64,000 nucleotides of DNA, taken from a virus (taxonomy: Duplodnaviria; Heunggongvirae; Uroviricota; Caudoviricetes). The notes beneath the pieces are model-generated. The model did not search any database, had not been told where the DNA came from, and saw only the letters and a list, made by a program, of their open reading frames with translations. The stretch covers positions 44,263 through 108,262 of the IMG/VR virus record IMGVR_UViG_3300020429_000539; one strand, 5' to 3'. The position numbers were made by a program, and so were the translations under genes. Positions 8,398 through 32,067 of the stretch are shown here, piece after piece (position 1 is the first letter of the stretch; each line of letters begins with the position of its first letter).

Positions 8398-9582
8398 TCA
8401 CTTGTTTTCTTCGTAGTCTTCGATAAGCTCTTCCAGACTTTCGAATACTTTAGCGTTTTCATTTTTGTCTGGTAGTGTTGGGCCGATTGGTGGGAGCAAC
8501 TCGTTCTTGACCGCGTACTTGATCATCTCGTCGTAGACTTCTTGAAGGTTTTCTGCGAGAGGACCAAAGGTGATTGAGTTGGTAGGAACTCCGGTCAGAA
8601 TCCTTACGATACTGTGCGATATTTGAAACTTGTAACCGTAGCGAAGACCATCTTTGATGAGAACATTGGCGAGTCTTTCTGGTAACCATGTTCTCCAGTC
8701 AGGCACGTCTCGAACATCTACTCTATTGCCATCTGCATCTCGGTAGCCGCGATTTTCCATACGAAGGCAGGGGCCGGCGAGGTCTTCTATATGGGCTCCT
8801 GTTGCATCGCTATGAATATCAGGATTTGACCGTTGCCAGAAAGTCTCTAGCGCAAGCATAGGAAACTTGAACCACCATGGGGCGTTCATGTGGGGCTTAG
8901 GCTCGCCATAAATATTGCGACCCTGTATGGCTTTGATGCTTTGAATCAATGAGAGGAAGTAATAGTTGGGATGGTCAGGCCCGTAAACATCAGGTGGACC
9001 ATATGAGGCATCAAAACCTATCTCAATGTTTGGAGCTTTGAGCGCTGGCTCAATTGAGTGAAAAAGAACACTGAGCCACTCGTCTATTTTTCCTTCATCA
9101 AGCAATGGCTTGATATCAGGGTCGTATCGAAGCGTGCCAAAGTAGCAAAGAAACACTACATCAGGATAGTTTTCGTAGATTTCGGCAATACGCTCATAGA
9201 AGTGTTCGTAAGCAAAGGTCTGACCGTTTCGTTTGGCTTCAAGCAAAGCATCATAGGACATAGGCTCGCCCGTTCTGCCAGTTTTTCCGTGAGGAAGATG
9301 AATATGGAATCGTTTGACGCCTTTCTTGATTGAAGGCATAATGTATGTATCAAAAAACCAGTTGTAGCCGCTTTCTGGTATGCCCCATCCCATATTCCTA
9401 GTTTCAGGATTAGGCAGCGCAGAAGAGACGCTCCACATCGCGTAGAAGTTTTCTTCGAACTGCTGGTATGTATAATCGGGATGCCCAGTATATTCGGGAG
9501 CCTTGGGCACGGCTAGCTTAGCGGCAGATTGAGCCGAAAGAGTTTTGTTTACAAAAGTCGAGGTTATTTTTGCGTTTTGCAT
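8398..9582 (-). CDS. hypothetical protein, paralogous to 36550-37467
   Basis: 394-aa ORF; shares GVKRFHIHLPHGK, IGFDA and YGEPKP-like motifs with 36550-37467. Confidence 0.6.
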   Translation of the reverse strand: MQNAKITSTFVNKTLSAQSAAKLAVPKAPEYTGHPDYTYQQFEENFYAMWSVSSALPNPETRNMGWGIPESGYNWFFDTYIMPSIKKGVKRFHIHLPHGKTGRTGEPMSYDALLEAKRNGQTFAYEHFYERIAEIYENYPDVVFLCYFGTLRYDPDIKPLLDEGKIDEWLSVLFHSIEPALKAPNIEIGFDASYGPPDVYGPDHPNYYFLSLIQSIKAIQGRNIYGEPKPHMNAPWWFKFPMLALETFWQRSNPDIHSDATGAHIEDLAGPCLRMENRGYRDADGNRVDVRDVPDWRTWLPERLANVLIKDGLRYGYKFQISHSIVRILTGVPTNSITFGPLAENLQEVYDEMIKYAVKNELLPPIGPTLPDKNENAKVFESLEELIEDYEENK

Positions 9583-9708
9583 AAGGAAGTCTCCTAAAAG
9601 AGTTATCCTTATAATTCAACGCCAGGTATATTTTCCTCCTGTTAGGTGAGAATAATACCTGTTGAACAGCTTTCAGCTTTATACAAGCTGTATTTTATTT
9701 TGCGAAAA

Positions 9709-9755
9709 CAGGGCAGGAGGGACTCGAACCCCCGACATTCGAATTAGAAGTTCGG
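9709..9755 (-). pseudogene. 3' half of a split tRNA-Arg(UCU)
   Basis: CTAA-TTCGA-ATGTC-GGGGG-TTCGAGT-CCCTC-CTGCCCT-G; the acceptor strand pairs with the 5' half at 10611-10645. Confidence 0.8.
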
Positions 9756-9962
9756 CCACTTGAAAGATGGTAGAGTGTTATTTTGTAGAACTTTTATGGT
9801 TTCTTGTTCTTTGTTTATATGCACACTAAATTTAAGTTGCCTTCGATGCTTTGTCGTAGTAGATAGATAGATATAAAGATAATCTTTACAGACTTCTACT
9901 TTTTCAATGGCTTCAGGATTAACCGAAAAGCCTCTATTTTCAATAGGTATCATTATGGTCAT
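9744..9962 (-). CDS. hypothetical protein inside the split-tRNA insertion
   Basis: 72 aa; start overlaps the HNH stop, and its TAA lies in the anticodon loop of the 3' half. Confidence 0.5.
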   Translation of the reverse strand: MTIMIPIENRGFSVNPEAIEKVEVCKDYLYIYLSTTTKHRRQLKFSVHINKEQETIKVLQNNTLPSFKWPNF

Positions 9963-10477
9963 TCCAATACTCCCTGTGGGTTATGTAATTCAGCATGACA
10001 ATTGCGACAAACTAGGTCGCATTTGGCAAGCTCTTTGTCAATATCTACCTGTTTTCTGGTTCGTAGCTTGTTCCATTGGAACTCTTTTGTACTGCCATTT
10101 CTATGATGAAACTCAAGTGCAGCATAGTTCTTATTATATCCACAAATCGAGCAGCCTCCCCCTTTTTGTTTGATGGCTTCAATTTTTCGCTTTTGCCACC
10201 TTTCAACGCAGTATGCATTAAAGCAGGATTTGCAATAAGAGAGCAATCTATTTGTTTTTCCCTTAGTATTAAATTGGTCAAACGATTTTTCTTCTTTACA
10301 TCTGGCGCATGTTTTTGTAGTATTTGATATTCTATGTATCTGTTTTGTATTATGTTCCCCAAAAGGAGAACATTGAAGACAGTATTTTCTGTTTTGGAGG
10401 TTTCTTTTTTTGTCATCTACTACAATAGACGCTGGTATATTTTCACCGCAATTGCGACACTGGTTAGCCATAAGCAT
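9959..10477 (-). CDS. HNH endonuclease
   Basis: Several CxxC fingers; ALEFHHR...KCDLVCRNCHAELH. Confidence 0.85.
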   Translation of the reverse strand: MLMANQCRNCGENIPASIVVDDKKRNLQNRKYCLQCSPFGEHNTKQIHRISNTTKTCARCKEEKSFDQFNTKGKTNRLLSYCKSCFNAYCVERWQKRKIEAIKQKGGGCSICGYNKNYAALEFHHRNGSTKEFQWNKLRTRKQVDIDKELAKCDLVCRNCHAELHNPQGVLE

Positions 10478-10537
10478 TCTCCTTGAATACTTATTGCTAG
10501 CCTAACCGGATAATACCTTTATGTCTAATCTAGAAAA

Positions 10538-10610
10538 TAGGTCCACTGGGATTCGAACCCAGAATATCGGTTTAGAAGACCGATGTGATATCCGGTTTCA
10601 CCATAGACCC
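10538..10610 (-). tRNA. tRNA-Arg(UCU), replacement copy
   Basis: GGGTCTA/TGGACCT acceptor; TCGGT-CTTCTAA-ACCGA anticodon arm; CTGGG-TTCGAAT-CCCAG T arm. Confidence 0.85.
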
Positions 10611-10645
10611 AAATCCGACGCTCTGTCCAACTGAGCTACTGCCCC
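10611..10645 (-). pseudogene. 5' half of the split tRNA-Arg(UCU)
   Basis: GGGGCAG-TA-GCTC-AGTTGGACA-GAGC-G-TCGGA-TTT, ending at anticodon position 34. Confidence 0.8.
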
Positions 10646-10650
10646 GTGGG

Positions 10651-11676
10651 TTAGGCTTTTGCTGTCTGCTTGACTTGTTCAGCCACCCATTGATAGGTCA
10701 AGGTCATTCCTTCTCGTGTAGAAATACTAGGCGACCACCCAAGAACCTTTTGAATCAGTGTGTTATCGCTTGCCCTGCCGTCTGCGCCTGTTGCGCCCTC
10801 AACATGCTGCTTTTCGATGTTTTTGCCAGCGATTTCAGCAACAAGGTCAACAAACTCATCAATTGTGTATATCTCGTCTGAGCCGATATTGATAGGCTCA
10901 TGAAAATCAGAGCGAGTCAATCGCCAAATGCCTTCAATAGCGTCTGCGATGTAGCAGAAGGTTCGTCGTTGTTTTCCGTCTCCCCAGACTTCAATGCTGC
11001 CAGATTCTCCCTCGACTTCAGCAACCTTGCGAGAGATAGCAGCAGGCACCTTTTCTCTGCCACCTGTCCAGGAGCCGTGAGGACCGTAGATAGCATGGAA
11101 TCGGGCGACATAGACAGGAATGCCGTGGTCTTCCATAAAGTTGAGGCACATGCGTTCGCTAAACAGTTTCTCCCAGCCGTATCCGTCTTCAGCTTCGGCA
11201 GGATACGCCATGTCTTCGGTTAGCCCCTTGCCATTATCAAGGTCAGTTTTCTTGTTGCCGTAGATGCAGGCTGAGCTTGCGTAGAAATATTTGTTGGGCT
11301 TATGAATTCGGGCGCATGCATCGAGCAGGTGGGTATTGATGAGGACGTTGAGCATGCAATCGGCCTTGTAGTCGGTGATAAAGCCGATACCGCCCATGTT
11401 ACAGGCGAGATTGAAGACCTCTTCTGGTTTGATTTGCTCGATGATGCGGTCGCAGTTTTCTCGTAGGGTCAGGTCGGTGTTATCGATATTATGGACTCGA
11501 CCTGAGGTATCGGCTTGCCACCACTCATCGAGAGGCTTTATGTCTACCGCAGCAACGCGGAAGCCTTTGTTTACCAGAAACTTGACAAGGTGGCCTCCGA
11601 TGAATCCACCTGCTCCGCAGACGAGGGCATCGTATGTATTAAACATGGGTTCGTTCGCCTCTGTTAAATCTTCCAT
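10651..11676 (-). CDS. NAD-dependent nucleotide-sugar epimerase (GDP-mannose 3,5-epimerase-like)
   Basis: LVCGAGGFIGGH Rossmann motif; YASSAC; YGWEKLFSE (YxxxK). Confidence 0.9.
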   Translation of the reverse strand: MEDLTEANEPMFNTYDALVCGAGGFIGGHLVKFLVNKGFRVAAVDIKPLDEWWQADTSGRVHNIDNTDLTLRENCDRIIEQIKPEEVFNLACNMGGIGFITDYKADCMLNVLINTHLLDACARIHKPNKYFYASSACIYGNKKTDLDNGKGLTEDMAYPAEAEDGYGWEKLFSERMCLNFMEDHGIPVYVARFHAIYGPHGSWTGGREKVPAAISRKVAEVEGESGSIEVWGDGKQRRTFCYIADAIEGIWRLTRSDFHEPINIGSDEIYTIDEFVDLVAEIAGKNIEKQHVEGATGADGRASDNTLIQKVLGWSPSISTREGMTLTYQWVAEQVKQTAKA

Positions 11677-30873: not shown

Positions 30874-30903
30874 TTGACCAGGTCGGATTCGAACCGACTA
30901 CCT
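30874..30903 (-). pseudogene. 3' part of a split tRNA (CAU)
   Basis: AGGTA-GTCGG-TTCGAAT-CCGAC-CTGGTCA-A; the acceptor strand is complementary to TGACCAG at 31519-31525. Confidence 0.8.
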
Positions 30904-31347
30904 GGATTTAGCCCAGCCAAATTGCTTAGCTGTTTTTCGCATATGACAGTTGGCACAGCGAAGTTCGCATTTGGCAATTTCTTTTTCAATCGTAGACCAT
31001 GAGTAGCACTGTGAGATCATTACAGATATAATCTCTTTCTTCTTTCCGCGAACATGGTCAAAGTGTAAAACAACAGGATCATTTTCTCCGCAATCCACAC
31101 AAGCTTTGCCAGAAAGGTACTCTATAAGCTTGTTTCTGTTAGATTCAATTTGTTTCTTAGAATGCCGTCTAGCTCTATCTTTGTAGATTTCTTTGTTTTC
31201 TTCGTAGTGTTTTTTAGAAGCTTGATTTGTGCAACTTCTACATCGAGAATGATATAGCTTTCTTTTCTTATCTTTGAAATTGAACTCTTTGGTAGACTTC
31301 GTTTTTTGACATCCAGAACAAGTTTTTGTATCCATGATTACCTCCAA
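30898..31347 (-). CDS. HNH endonuclease
   Basis: CxxC fingers; CVDCGENDPVVLHFDHVRG...KCELRCANCHMRK. Confidence 0.9.
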   Translation of the reverse strand: MEVIMDTKTCSGCQKTKSTKEFNFKDKKRKLYHSRCRSCTNQASKKHYEENKEIYKDRARRHSKKQIESNRNKLIEYLSGKACVDCGENDPVVLHFDHVRGKKKEIISVMISQCYSWSTIEKEIAKCELRCANCHMRKTAKQFGWAKSR

Positions 31348-31487
31348 GGATACTTTTCTTGCAAAGACTTGAATGTCTTTCTTTTATTTTGAATCTACAA
31401 AGAAGTAATAGGGCTACTCGGATTCGAACCGAGAACCTCGGAATTATGAGTTCCTTGCTCTGCCGTTGAGCTATAACCCCACGCGCA
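30904..31487 (-). mobile_element. HNH cassette carrying a replacement tRNA(CAU), inserted in a tRNA(CAU) gene
   Basis: Bounded by complementary tRNA pieces; contains an intact CAU tRNA and an HNH gene. Confidence 0.7.
31409..31480 (-). tRNA. tRNA(CAU), Met or Ile2; replacement copy
   Basis: GGAA-CTCATAA-TTCC; CTCGG-TTCGAAT-CCGAG. Confidence 0.85.
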
Positions 31488-31525
31488 TTATGAGTCGGGC
31501 GCTTAGCCGCTCAGCGCACTGGTCA
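31488..31525 (-). pseudogene. 5' part of the split tRNA(CAU)
   Basis: TGACCAG-TGCGCTGAGCGGCTAAGCG-CCCGA-CTCATAA-T, then breaks off. Confidence 0.8.
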
Positions 31526-31922: not shown

Positions 31923-31973
31923 ACCTGGTACTTCGGTATGAACTTACCCCAATCCTCTGTTTCAAAGATTAAA

Positions 31974-32063
31974 CACTCCCGGAAGGATTCGAACCCTCAA
32001 CCACGGCCTTCGATGGCCTAAACCGGATAGAAGCCGGTTGCTCTACCATTGAGCTACGGGAGC
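31974..32063 (-). tRNA. tRNA-Arg(UCU) with a long variable arm
   Basis: ACCGG-CTTCTAT-CCGGT followed by GGCC-ATCGAA-GGCC. Confidence 0.75.
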
Positions 32064-32067
32064 AAAA

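What the first reader, a model, noticed from the sequence alone, without database searches (positions are those of the whole stretch)
9709..10645. tRNA-Arg(UCU) split exactly inside the anticodon by a cassette that begins with another tRNA-Arg(UCU)
Seen: the 5' half ends at U34, and the very next base is nucleotide 1 of an intact tRNA-Arg(UCU). HNH and a small ORF follow, then a 3' half starting C35-U36-A37-A38. Joining the halves gives a complete cloverleaf (GGGGCAG/CTGCCCT; TCGGA-TTTCTAA-TTCGA). Inference: insertion with replacement. Alternatively, RNase P cleavage of the inner tRNA would free the outer 5' half precisely at U34, so the outer tRNA might be re-ligated as a non-canonical intron.
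Basis: partly seen in the sequence, partly recalled or inferred. Interest (0 to 1): 0.8.

Follow-up and report, generated by a model that had tools for sequence, protein, structure and literature searches.

The report
Nuclease cassette splits and replaces tRNA-Arg
A selfish DNA-cutting-enzyme gene that travels with its own arginine tRNA gene has landed inside this giant marine phage's older arginine tRNA gene. The old gene is left as two dead halves and the cassette supplies the working copy, a layout that recurs in many phages but that I could not find in the literature.

Summary
On the minus strand a tRNA-Arg(UCU) gene is broken in its anticodon loop (5' piece 10645..10611, 3' piece 9750/9747..9709). 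The ~860-nt insert holds an intact tRNA-Arg(UCU), an HNH endonuclease gene and a 72-codon ORF. Joining the pieces gives a perfect cloverleaf (21/21 stem pairs). The pieces overlap by 3 loop bases, so the break cannot be pinned to 34|35.

'Insertion with replacement' is supported.
- Two related phages have the same locus with only a decaying 5' stump plus the identical inner tRNA.
- At least five other phage loci carry homologous HNH genes with their own tRNA-Arg(UCU) inside another split tRNA-Arg(UCU). One is the cultured E. coli phage Bas92.
- In five sense-orientation loci (this window and four of those five) the last cassette ORF stops at U36-A37-A38 of the broken loop.
- In three of these loci the old tRNA can no longer be rebuilt.
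- No ribozyme and no splicing endonuclease were found.

The re-ligation idea is not excluded for this phage but has no support (about 5%).

This scan already noted the same cassette type in at least eight other genomes, and sister cassettes in this genome. I found no published description. I class it as a new variant of free-standing homing endonuclease elements.

The parts
10611..10645 (-). Outer (old) tRNA-Arg(UCU), 5' piece: nucleotides 1-34 (acceptor strand GGGGCAG, D arm, stem strand TCGGA, loop TTT)
   Evidence: Sequence read. Pairs 7/7 with the acceptor strand of the 3' piece. Part of the 21/21 cloverleaf. Homologous stumps survive in L013 and L006.
10538..10610 (-). Inner (replacement) tRNA-Arg(UCU), intact. 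It has an unusual D loop (AAACCGGATAT), a TATTC variable loop, G1-U72 and A73.
   Evidence: Rfam tRNA 63.8 bits; ARAGORN. It is 72/72 identical in L006 and L013 while their flanks are 73-87% identical. It is the only canonical Arg(UCU) tRNA among the genome's 63 tRNAs. It resembles the cassette-borne tRNAs of L108 (86%) and E. coli phage Bas92 (75%).
10478..10537 (-). Spacer between the inner tRNA and the HNH gene. It keeps the motif AGATTAGA and the ribosome-binding site AAGGAG.
   Evidence: Most of the relatives folded have a hairpin (GRWTAGA ... TCTAWYC) here, and several have a second hairpin over the ribosome-binding site. In this window the fold is not better than shuffles (z +1.45), so the element is degenerate.
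9959..10477 (-). HNH endonuclease gene: 172 codons from the first ATG, probably 170 from the ATG at 10471, which has better spacing to the ribosome-binding site. It has an N-terminal CxxC zinc-ribbon region and a C-terminal HNH motif.
   Evidence: PHROG 2255 'HNH endonuclease', E 1.2e-44. All invariant Cys, His and Asn columns of a 20-member alignment are present. There are 366 homologues; an identical protein is recorded on 46 contigs (57 index blocks, 24 contigs read). Pfam gave no hit at E 0.1.
9744..9962 (-). ORF72, a small orphan ORF that overlaps the HNH stop by ATGA. Its stop codon TAA (9746..9744) is U36-A37-A38 of the old anticodon loop.
   Evidence: Gene callers call it on independent contigs. 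Among 1.8 billion representative proteins it matches only itself, plus weak matches to repeats in giant T9SS surface proteins. It is absent from the cassettes of L020, L107, L023 and L026, where the HNH ORF itself ends at that TAA.
9709..9750 (-). Outer (old) tRNA-Arg(UCU), 3' piece: whole loop CTTCTAA (9750..9744), stem strand TTCGA, variable loop, T arm, acceptor strand CTGCCCT, G73.
   Evidence: (partial tRNA match at 20.7 bits).
10533..10541 (-). Direct repeat CCT-A-TTTTC at the 3' end of the inner tRNA
   Evidence: In L006 and L013 the sequence runs from CCT of the inner tRNA straight into the G-TTTT flank of the old tRNA. This is the product expected from a deletion between this repeat and its partner.
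9704..9712 (-). Partner direct repeat CCT-G-TTTTC at the 3' end of the outer tRNA
   Evidence: three-way alignment.

Best explanation
This is a free-standing homing-endonuclease cassette made of a tRNA-Arg(UCU) gene followed by an HNH nuclease gene, here with an extra small ORF. It inserted at the DNA level into the anticodon-loop region of the phage's resident tRNA-Arg(UCU) gene.

The old gene is now two non-functional pieces. The cassette's own tRNA does the decoding.

Proposed cycle, inferred by analogy with characterised homing endonucleases:
1. In a mixed infection the HNH enzyme cuts cassette-free tRNA-Arg(UCU) genes in or near the anticodon loop.
2. The break is repaired from the cassette-bearing genome, using the tRNA pieces and flanks as homology. 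This copies the cassette in.
3. The phage tolerates the loss of its tRNA because the cassette brings a substitute that its own nuclease presumably does not cut.
4. The right end of the cassette is built so that the last ORF terminates at the TAA formed by U36-A37-A38 of any Arg(UCU) loop.
5. Later the nuclease gene decays or is deleted. This happened in two related phages by deletion between 9-nt repeats, leaving a 5' stump next to the replacement tRNA.

Shown here: the anatomy, its recurrence, the decay products, and that the cassette is less diverged than its surroundings.
Inferred: cleavage specificity, immunity of the inner tRNA, and the homing event itself.
For: 1. Anatomy and intactness of the inner tRNA and the HNH gene.

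2. Same locus in relatives. L013 (87% flank identity) and L006/L008 (80%) carry [5' stump][identical inner tRNA][old downstream flank], with no HNH gene, ORF72 or 3' piece. The breakpoint lies between CCT-R-TTTTC repeats. Identities are inner tRNA 72/72, stump 69-80%, neighbouring non-coding DNA 73-90%.

3. Recurrence. Four of five look-ups of individual close homologues found a tRNA-Arg(UCU) just upstream on the same strand; L109 had only a tRNA-like remnant. L020, L107, L023 and L026/27 have a split outer tRNA-Arg(UCU) with 6-7 of 7 complementary acceptor pairs around the cassette; L108 keeps only 4 of 7. The null rate is 1.2%. The cultured E. coli phage Bas92 has the antisense-HNH version with a 7/7 acceptor.

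4. In all five sense-orientation loci the last cassette ORF stops at U36-A37-A38 of the outer loop.

5. In 84 loci, 23 of 78 HNH-adjacent tRNAs are Arg(UCU) against 7 of 141 non-adjacent ones (Fisher p 1.5e-6). HNH subclades cluster by tRNA type.

6. Mobility. L107 and L020 hold the cassette at one orthologous locus. Inner tRNA is 96% identical, the non-coding spacer 84% and the HNH gene 74%, but the flanking genes only 59-64%. Five other giant-phage records that hold HNH homologues (two of them with the split cassette) lack this locus's neighbouring gene.

7. The outer pieces of L023 match the inner tRNA of L026 (22/22 and 35/39). Our outer tRNA is 81% identical to the inner tRNA of L020 but 62% to our own inner tRNA. 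This fits serial replacement.

8. No group I or II intron signal.
Against: - No clean empty site was found, meaning an uninterrupted copy of this outer tRNA at this locus or anywhere else. Four pattern scans of viral contigs and metagenomes gave nothing or a chance hit.
- The nuclease's activity and target are untested.
- Inner-tRNA and HNH similarities are not fully congruent. The closest HNH genes (L020, L107) carry a different inner tRNA type from ours, while L108, L031 and Bas92 share ours. The tRNA and the nuclease therefore do not always travel as one fixed unit.
- The higher conservation of the cassette could partly reflect selection on the tRNA rather than recent transfer.
- The left junction in this window, where the inner tRNA starts directly after U34, is cleaner than a random insertion would suggest and is unexplained.
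Confidence: 0.8

Rival explanations
1. The outer tRNA is still made: a non-canonical intron. The whole region is transcribed. RNase P cutting at the 5' end of the inner tRNA releases the outer 5' half ending at U34. Another nuclease frees the 3' half at C35, and an RNA ligase joins them, so the phage has two tRNA-Arg(UCU) species.
For: In this window, and by eye in L107, the two pieces are complete and give a perfect cloverleaf. The inner tRNA starts directly after U34. The phage encodes a full-length RtcB ligase (349 bits) and a weak RNA-ligase-like match (25 bits, below cut-off). Other notes of this scan describe tRNA-shaped inserts in phage anticodon loops that may need such splicing; those are unchecked leads.
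Against: - L020, L023 and L026 lack the 5' anticodon-stem strand; their best joins reach 17-19 of 21 pairs, with 2-3 of 5 in the anticodon stem.
- L006 and L013 lack the 3' piece altogether.
- The 5' stump evolves like non-coding DNA.
- L107 has 18 nt between U34 and the inner tRNA.
- No structure or known cleavage signal lies before C35, which sits inside a stop codon.
- No ribozyme and no EndA family member were found.
- RNase P leaves a 3'-OH, whereas RtcB joins 3'-phosphate or cyclic-phosphate ends to 5'-OH (established enzymology).
Confidence: 0.05
2. The HNH gene is a bystander. The split arose by illegitimate recombination or duplication among tRNA genes. The HNH protein next to tRNA-Arg has another role, or targets a different site, and does not mobilise the tRNA.
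For: No cleavage data exist. HNH and inner-tRNA phylogenies are not congruent. In many family members the HNH gene simply lies between intact tRNA genes with no visible split.
Against: The same specific architecture surrounds HNH homologues at six or more unrelated loci, against about one expected by chance: a split Arg(UCU) gene, an ORF stop at U36-A37-A38 in the sense-orientation loci, and a replacement Arg(UCU) gene. Arg(UCU) is enriched eight-fold next to the HNH gene. In L006 and L013 the loss of the HNH gene coincides with the loss of the 3' piece.
Confidence: 0.1
3. Assembly artefact or chimeric contig that places unrelated tRNA pieces around an HNH gene.
For: Three short assemblies end within or just after the cassette's 3' junction, at window 9696, 9759 and 9846.
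Against: The four contigs I aligned, from different projects and out of 24 that carry the identical HNH, include a 477-kb one and carry the identical arrangement. Runs of six studies hold the stretch. The layout recurs in unrelated phages, including a sequenced isolate.
Confidence: 0.01

Closest known systems
T4/T6 SegB, a free-standing GIY-YIG homing endonuclease in the phage tRNA gene cluster (PMC2330249; also PMC13096335). T5 F-TflI/II/IV in the T5 tRNA region are cited there.
   Same: A nuclease gene embedded among phage tRNA genes. It cuts tRNA genes of related phages that lack it, so that it and the neighbouring tRNA genes are preferentially inherited. The segB ORF's stop codon overlaps the next tRNA-Arg gene, as the ORFs here end inside tRNA sequence.
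   Different: SegB is GIY-YIG, not HNH. It recognises the T-loop motif of many tRNAs. It lies between intact tRNA genes. It is not described as splitting a tRNA gene or as carrying a dedicated replacement of the tRNA it destroys.
Mobile endonuclease ORFs of fungal mitochondria that insert together with a replacement gene end (Allomyces atp6 type). Cited from my own knowledge and named in this scan's notes on the same genome.
   Same: The selfish nuclease gene breaks its target gene, brings a foreign substitute for the broken part, and strands the original piece downstream. No splicing is needed.
   Different: The target there is a protein gene and only its terminus is replaced. Here a whole structural RNA gene is supplied and both halves of the old gene are stranded.
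Group I introns in bacterial and cyanobacterial tRNA anticodon loops, some with a homing endonuclease (tRNA-Leu(UAA); tRNA-fMet with I-Ssp6803I). Cited from my own knowledge.
   Same: An endonuclease-bearing insert in the anticodon loop of a tRNA gene. The 5' piece ends in U.
   Different: Those inserts are ribozymes that restore the tRNA at the RNA level. Here Rfam finds no intron, the insert does not end in G, and function is restored by a second gene.
Antisense-HNH tRNA-Arg(UCU) cassettes in cultured phages, for example Escherichia phage JacquesWildberger_Bas92 (PQ850610.1). GenBank annotates only 'HNH endonuclease' and 'tRNA-Arg'. This scan noted them before.
   Same: The HNH gene is 45% identical. 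The cassette tRNA has the same odd D loop and TATTC variable loop. The outer tRNA-Arg(UCU) is split, with a 7/7 acceptor match, and its 3' piece begins with the whole CTTCTAA loop.
   Different: The order is [5' piece][HNH on the opposite strand][inner tRNA][3' piece], and the 5' piece is cut back to about nucleotide 22. In this window the tRNA comes first, the HNH gene is on the same strand, an extra ORF is present, and both old pieces are complete.

Membership tests
Free-standing homing endonuclease element | Encodes a nuclease of a homing-endonuclease family with an intact active-site motif | tested here: met
   PHROG 2255 HNH endonuclease, E 1.2e-44. Invariant CxxC pairs, HH, N and H are all present.
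Free-standing homing endonuclease element | Presence/absence polymorphism at one locus among related genomes | tested here: inconclusive
   L006 and L013 lack the HNH gene at the same locus, but as a deletion derivative that keeps the cassette tRNA. No uninterrupted target allele was found.
Free-standing homing endonuclease element | Recurrent insertion in one conserved target sequence at otherwise unrelated loci | tested here: met
   Split tRNA-Arg(UCU) genes surround homologous cassettes in L020/L107, L023, L026/27 and Bas92, with a degraded case in L108. The right junction lies at the anticodon loop in each. The flanks are unrelated.
Free-standing homing endonuclease element | Element less diverged than its genomic surroundings (horizontal spread) | tested here: met
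   L107 against L020: tRNA 96%, spacer 84%, HNH 74%, flanking genes 59-64%. This window against L013 and L006: inner tRNA 100%, flanks 73-87%. Selection on the tRNA is a partial confounder.
Free-standing homing endonuclease element | The enzyme cleaves the element-free allele and this drives inheritance of the element | not testable with these tools
   Needs an in vitro cleavage assay and mixed infections.
Self-splicing group I / group II intron | Ribozyme core detectable; for group I, the insert ends in G | tested here: not met
   Rfam scan of 9300-11000 at E up to 10 found only tRNA matches plus noise. The last insert base before any of the equivalent joins is T or C.
Protein-spliced (archaeal/eukaryal type) tRNA intron | A splicing endonuclease (EndA family) is available, and exon ends are compatible with the ligase present | tested here: not met
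   PF01974 is absent from the complete 488-kb genome while the archaeal controls ring. RtcB is present, but RNase P products are not its substrates (established enzymology). The host enzymes are unknown.
Integrase-mediated island in a tRNA gene | An integrase gene and a direct repeat of the tRNA 3' end at both borders | tested here: not met
   The insert holds only the tRNA, the HNH gene and ORF72. The borders are the two complementary halves of one tRNA, not repeated 3' ends.
Functional tRNA-Arg (inner gene) | Full cloverleaf above the Rfam threshold, anticodon UCU, Arg identity bases (A20, C35), and purifying selection | tested here: met
   63.8 bits against a gathering score of 29. GGA in the D loop and C35 read from the sequence (identity rules from established knowledge). 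72/72 identical in two diverged relatives. Aminoacylation is untested.

The most novel reading that the evidence does not exclude
In this phage, and in L107, the two complete pieces of the old tRNA may still be assembled into a working tRNA. RNase P processing of the nested tRNA would release the 5' half exactly at U34, a second cut would free the 3' half, and a phage or host RNA ligase would seal the anticodon loop. That would be a protein-dependent 'tRNA-guided' intron carrying a whole tRNA and a nuclease gene, which is unknown in bacteria and their viruses.
Probability: 0.05. Interest if true: 0.85.

Novelty: new variant of a known kind. Interest (0 to 1): 0.55.

Why it matters
Homing endonucleases normally avoid killing their host gene in one of two ways: they hide in a self-splicing intron or intein, or they sit between genes. 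This is a third way applied to a structural RNA: destroy the target gene and deliver a spare.

If the mechanism holds, these cassettes act as gene drives for particular tRNA alleles.
- That would explain part of how tRNA genes spread and turn over in phage genomes. The 'dead' tRNA of one phage is nearly the 'live' cassette tRNA of another.
- It would explain why stray tRNA halves litter phage tRNA clusters.
- It would explain why some phage tRNAs have odd shapes, since they must escape their own nuclease.

It also matters for annotation. tRNA finders report only the inner gene, and the halves are easily mistaken for split or intron-containing tRNAs.

Cultured E. coli phages carry a sister version, so the idea can be tested at the bench.

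Tried and rejected
- **Empty site.** Exact scans of viral contigs for the 5' piece, the 3' piece and the joined loop gave no hit or one chance hit in a coding region. The single metagenome scan, run with an inner-tRNA word, found only L013, L006 (as L014) and two chance hits.
- **Neighbour gene.** The 394-aa neighbour has no relative in viral contigs by pattern search. Its more distant homologues, L009 and L010, have no tRNA at the site.
- **Reads.** Three DNA runs and one metatranscriptome were available only as sparse Logan contigs. No contig bridged the junctions, and there was no empty-site or spliced joint. The one 'joint' had 104 foreign letters between its sides and looks like two neighbouring tRNAs of another organism. 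The result is uninformative.
- **ARAGORN on all possible joins** was too permissive to discriminate. I replaced it with a strict cloverleaf parser.
- **Weak protein searches.** Pfam did not recognise the HNH protein at E 0.1. A profile search of PDB sequences gave only marginal hits.
- **ORF72.** No PHROG or Pfam family. A search of 1.8 billion representative proteins gave only itself and weak repeat matches.
- **Other giant phages.** Five giant-phage records that hold HNH homologues lack the 394-aa gene. The locus orthologous to the L020 cassette site in this genome has no tRNA, so it is no use as an empty site.
- **Promoter and terminator scan** of the region was no better than shuffles.
- **Integrase island and BHB intron readings** were rejected; see the membership test.
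Full report
**Setting.** The window is bases 44263-108262 of a complete 488-kb marine phage genome with terminal repeats. The genome carries 63 tRNA genes and a tmRNA. Everything discussed here is on the minus strand, between an epimerase gene (11676..10651) and a 394-codon gene of unknown function (9582..8398).

**The observation.** Reading the minus strand gives this order:
- 35 nt that are nucleotides 1-34 of a tRNA (10645..10611)
- with no spacer, a complete tRNA-Arg(UCU) (10610..10538; Rfam tRNA 63.8 bits)
- a 59-nt spacer
- an HNH endonuclease gene (10477/10471..9959; PHROG 2255, E 1.2e-44, with every invariant catalytic and zinc-binding residue of the family)
- a 72-codon ORF overlapping it by ATGA (9962..9744)
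- the remainder of the first tRNA, ending at 9709.

Joining the two outer pieces gives a 74-nt tRNA-Arg(UCU) by ARAGORN, with 21 of 21 stem pairs in a strict cloverleaf parser.

There is one correction. The two pieces thus overlap by three loop bases, and four joins are equivalent. ORF72's stop codon is U36-A37-A38 of the old loop.

The arrangement is 100% identical in the four independent assemblies I aligned, the longest 477 kb, out of 24 contigs that carry the identical HNH. It is not an artefact.

**The same locus in relatives.** The neighbouring 394-aa protein has three homologues. The closest sit on metagenome contigs L006/L007/L008 (88% protein identity, about 80% DNA identity). A scan for an inner-tRNA word also found L013 (87% DNA identity). 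Both relatives have the epimerase gene, then a 35-nt stump homologous to our 5' piece, then a tRNA identical to our inner tRNA at all 72 compared positions. After that comes the G-TTTT flank that in our window follows the old tRNA. There is no HNH gene, no ORF72 and no 3' piece.

In our window the inner tRNA and the old tRNA both end in CCT-R-TTTTC. A deletion between these 9-nt repeats gives exactly the relatives' sequence. The stump is 69-80% identical between lineages, like the adjacent non-coding DNA (73-90%), while the inner tRNA has not changed. So in at least two lineages the old tRNA is dispensable debris and the inner tRNA is the gene kept. In our genome the inner tRNA is the only canonical tRNA-Arg(UCU).

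**The cassette elsewhere.** The HNH protein has 366 homologues at E below 0.001. I looked up five close ones individually. Four have a tRNA-Arg(UCU) 30-170 nt upstream on the same strand: L020, L023, L024 and L107. The fifth, L109, had only a tRNA-like remnant; L108 also has an upstream tRNA-Arg(UCU) beside a broken HNH gene.

- L020 and L107 (one orthologous locus in two diverged giant phages), L023 and L026/L027 also have the pieces of a second tRNA-Arg(UCU) around the cassette. Their acceptor strands pair at 6-7 of 7 positions.
- L108 is a degraded case with a broken HNH gene and 4 of 7 pairs.
- In a control with mismatched upstream and downstream regions, only 1.2% of pairs gave such a match.
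- In all five sense-orientation loci the last ORF of the cassette stops at the TAA that is U36-A37-A38 of the broken loop. Usually this ORF is the HNH gene itself; ours is ORF72, which looks like a later addition.
- The left junction varies: after nucleotide 34 in our window and in L107 (there followed by 18 nt), after about 26 in L020, about 24 in L026 and about 23 in L023.
- In those last three loci no single join rebuilds an anticodon stem; the best joins reach 17-19 of 21 pairs.

Following a lead from earlier notes of this scan, I checked the cultured Escherichia phage Bas92. It has a 45%-identical HNH gene on the opposite strand, between a 5' piece and a cassette tRNA with the same odd D loop as ours. 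A 3' piece follows that starts with CTTCTAA and pairs 7/7 with the 5' piece.

**Family-level pattern.** I examined 84 loci holding HNH homologues: 80 from viral contigs plus those above.
- Of 78 tRNAs within 100 nt of the HNH gene, 23 are Arg(UCU), against 7 of 141 tRNAs further away (Fisher p 1.5e-6). The loci are not fully independent.
- A FastTree phylogeny is poorly resolved but groups Arg(UCU)-linked, Met/Ile(CAU)-linked and Asn(GUU)-linked enzymes (0 of 500 label shuffles as clustered).
- A CAU-type cassette with the same logic exists in L068. Another lies in this very window at about 30874-31525; its HNH protein is 33% identical to ours and falls in the same PHROG.

**Evidence for mobility.**
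- Between L107 and L020 the inner tRNA is 96% identical, the non-coding spacer 84% and the HNH gene 74%, but the flanking genes only 59-64%. The cassettes therefore share a more recent ancestor than the genomes around them.
- Cassettes sit at unrelated loci.
- The dead outer pieces of L023 match the live inner tRNA of L026 at 22/22 and 35/39 positions.
- Our outer tRNA is 81% identical to L020's inner tRNA, but only 62% to our own inner one.
- This looks like serial replacement: the tRNA delivered by one cassette becomes the target of the next.
- One caveat applies. The nearest HNH genes to ours (L020, L107) carry a different tRNA type, whereas L108, L031 and Bas92 share ours. Nuclease and tRNA are sometimes re-assorted.

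**The splicing alternative.**
- Rfam finds no ribozyme.
- The insert does not end in G.
- The genome has no EndA-type endonuclease.
- It does encode RtcB. By established enzymology, however, RtcB joins 3'-phosphate or cyclic-phosphate ends to 5'-OH ends, which RNase P does not produce.
- An Rnl-type match is below threshold.
- RNase P should indeed cut between U34 and the inner tRNA, but that merely turns the stump into a discarded 5' leader.
- Nothing marks a cut before C35.
- The comparative data (three non-restorable cassettes, two loci without a 3' piece, and a stump that drifts) show that restoration is not a conserved property.
- Public reads were too sparse to test for a joined RNA.

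I give this reading about 5% for our phage.

**Mechanism proposed.** Shown here:
- a tRNA-plus-HNH module sits inside a broken tRNA gene of the same specificity
- this recurs in unrelated phages
- the module is younger than its flanks
- the ORF ends on a stop codon supplied by the invariant loop
- the module decays by deletion.

Inferred by analogy with SegB and other free-standing homing endonucleases (PMC2330249):
- the HNH enzyme cuts cassette-free tRNA-Arg(UCU) genes in co-infecting genomes
- repair copies the cassette in, using the tRNA pieces and flanks as homology
- the cassette's tRNA escapes cutting and keeps the phage viable.

Unexplained:
- why the inner tRNA abuts U34 without a spacer here
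- what ORF72 does
- what distinguishes immune tRNA alleles from susceptible ones.

**Comparison with what is known, and novelty.**
- Nucleases among phage tRNA genes are known: SegB, T5 F-TflI/II/IV, and HNH genes beside cyanobacterial tRNA arrays.
- SegB's ORF even ends in the next tRNA-Arg gene.
- Endonuclease elements that bring a replacement gene end are known from fungal mitochondria (my own knowledge).
- Six full-text searches found no paper describing a nuclease cassette that splits a tRNA gene and carries a whole replacement.
- This scan has noted the same cassette type in at least eight other genomes, and sister cassettes for tRNA(CAU), RNase P RNA and a protein terminus in this genome. 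My analysis was made independently and agrees with those notes.

I class the finding as a new variant of a known kind. It is a clear, well-preserved example in the sense orientation, with both old halves intact and with its own decay product visible in relatives.

Noticed in passing
L004, L034, L039, L049, L074, L091, L095, L100, L102 (HNH stop codon 8-11 nt inside the next tRNA): In nine HNH-family loci the ORF runs through the 5' acceptor strand of the next intact tRNA and stops at its conserved U8-A9-G/A10 (TAG or TAA). RNase P cutting at that tRNA's 5' end would remove the stop codon from the mRNA. The SegB paper proposes the same control for T4 segB.
   Followed up: partly
L020:2442-2500, L107:1143-1200, L026:1443-1500, L039, L034, L052, L074, L031; window 10478-10537: Most tRNA-Arg/HNH cassettes have a hairpin with co-varying arms (GRWTAGA ... 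TCTAWYC, containing a TTCTAA-like word) right after the cassette tRNA. Several have a second hairpin holding the ribosome-binding site. The copy in this window is degenerate (z +1.45). This could be an operator, a processing site or a translational control element.
   Followed up: partly
L023 and L026 (viral/metagenome contigs): The dead outer tRNA pieces of L023 are nearly identical (22/22 and 35/39) to the live cassette tRNA of L026. This suggests that cassettes invade tRNAs delivered by earlier cassettes.
   Followed up: partly
window 10611 and 10538, against L006:3004/3077 and L013: The base before the inner tRNA and its discriminator co-vary: T..A here, C..G in both relatives. This allows an 8-bp acceptor helix, and ARAGORN therefore shifts the gene by one base. 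It may be coincidence, because the G comes from the deletion junction, or it may affect RNase P site choice.
   Followed up: no
window 31973-32064 (minus strand): ARAGORN calls a 92-nt 'tRNA-Arg(tct)' with a long hairpin variable arm. This is not a normal class I Arg tRNA. It lies next to the tRNA-like RNAs that other notes of this scan link to Ro60/Y RNA.
   Followed up: no
window 30874-31525 (minus strand); L068: A second split-and-replace cassette for tRNA(CAU). Its HNH protein (30898..31347) is 33% identical to the Arg one (E 4e-13) and falls in the same PHROG. L068 shows the same CAU layout, with the ORF stop at U36-A37-A38 (CATAA).
   Followed up: partly
G000:C1:133085-134212 (L110), outside the window: The phage encodes a full-length RtcB RNA ligase (349 bits). 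No EndA-type splicing endonuclease was found in the genome.
   Followed up: partly
L016, L017, L018 (ends map to window 9696, 9759, 9846): Three independent short assemblies of this phage break off within or just after the cassette's 3' junction. This may hint at population heterogeneity there, but the available reads could not confirm it.
   Followed up: partly
L108 (1382-bp contig): A decaying relative of the cassette. The inner tRNA is 86% identical to ours. The HNH reading frame is interrupted near its N-terminus and ends 8 nt before the old loop. The outer acceptor strands pair at only 4 of 7 positions.
   Followed up: partly
window 9744-9962 (ORF72); P0125, P0126: ORF72 residues 8-48 weakly resemble (24% identity) a unit repeated up to nine times in 2100-2500-aa proteins that carry InlB B-repeat domains and a T9SS sorting tail. 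The meaning is unknown.
   Followed up: partly
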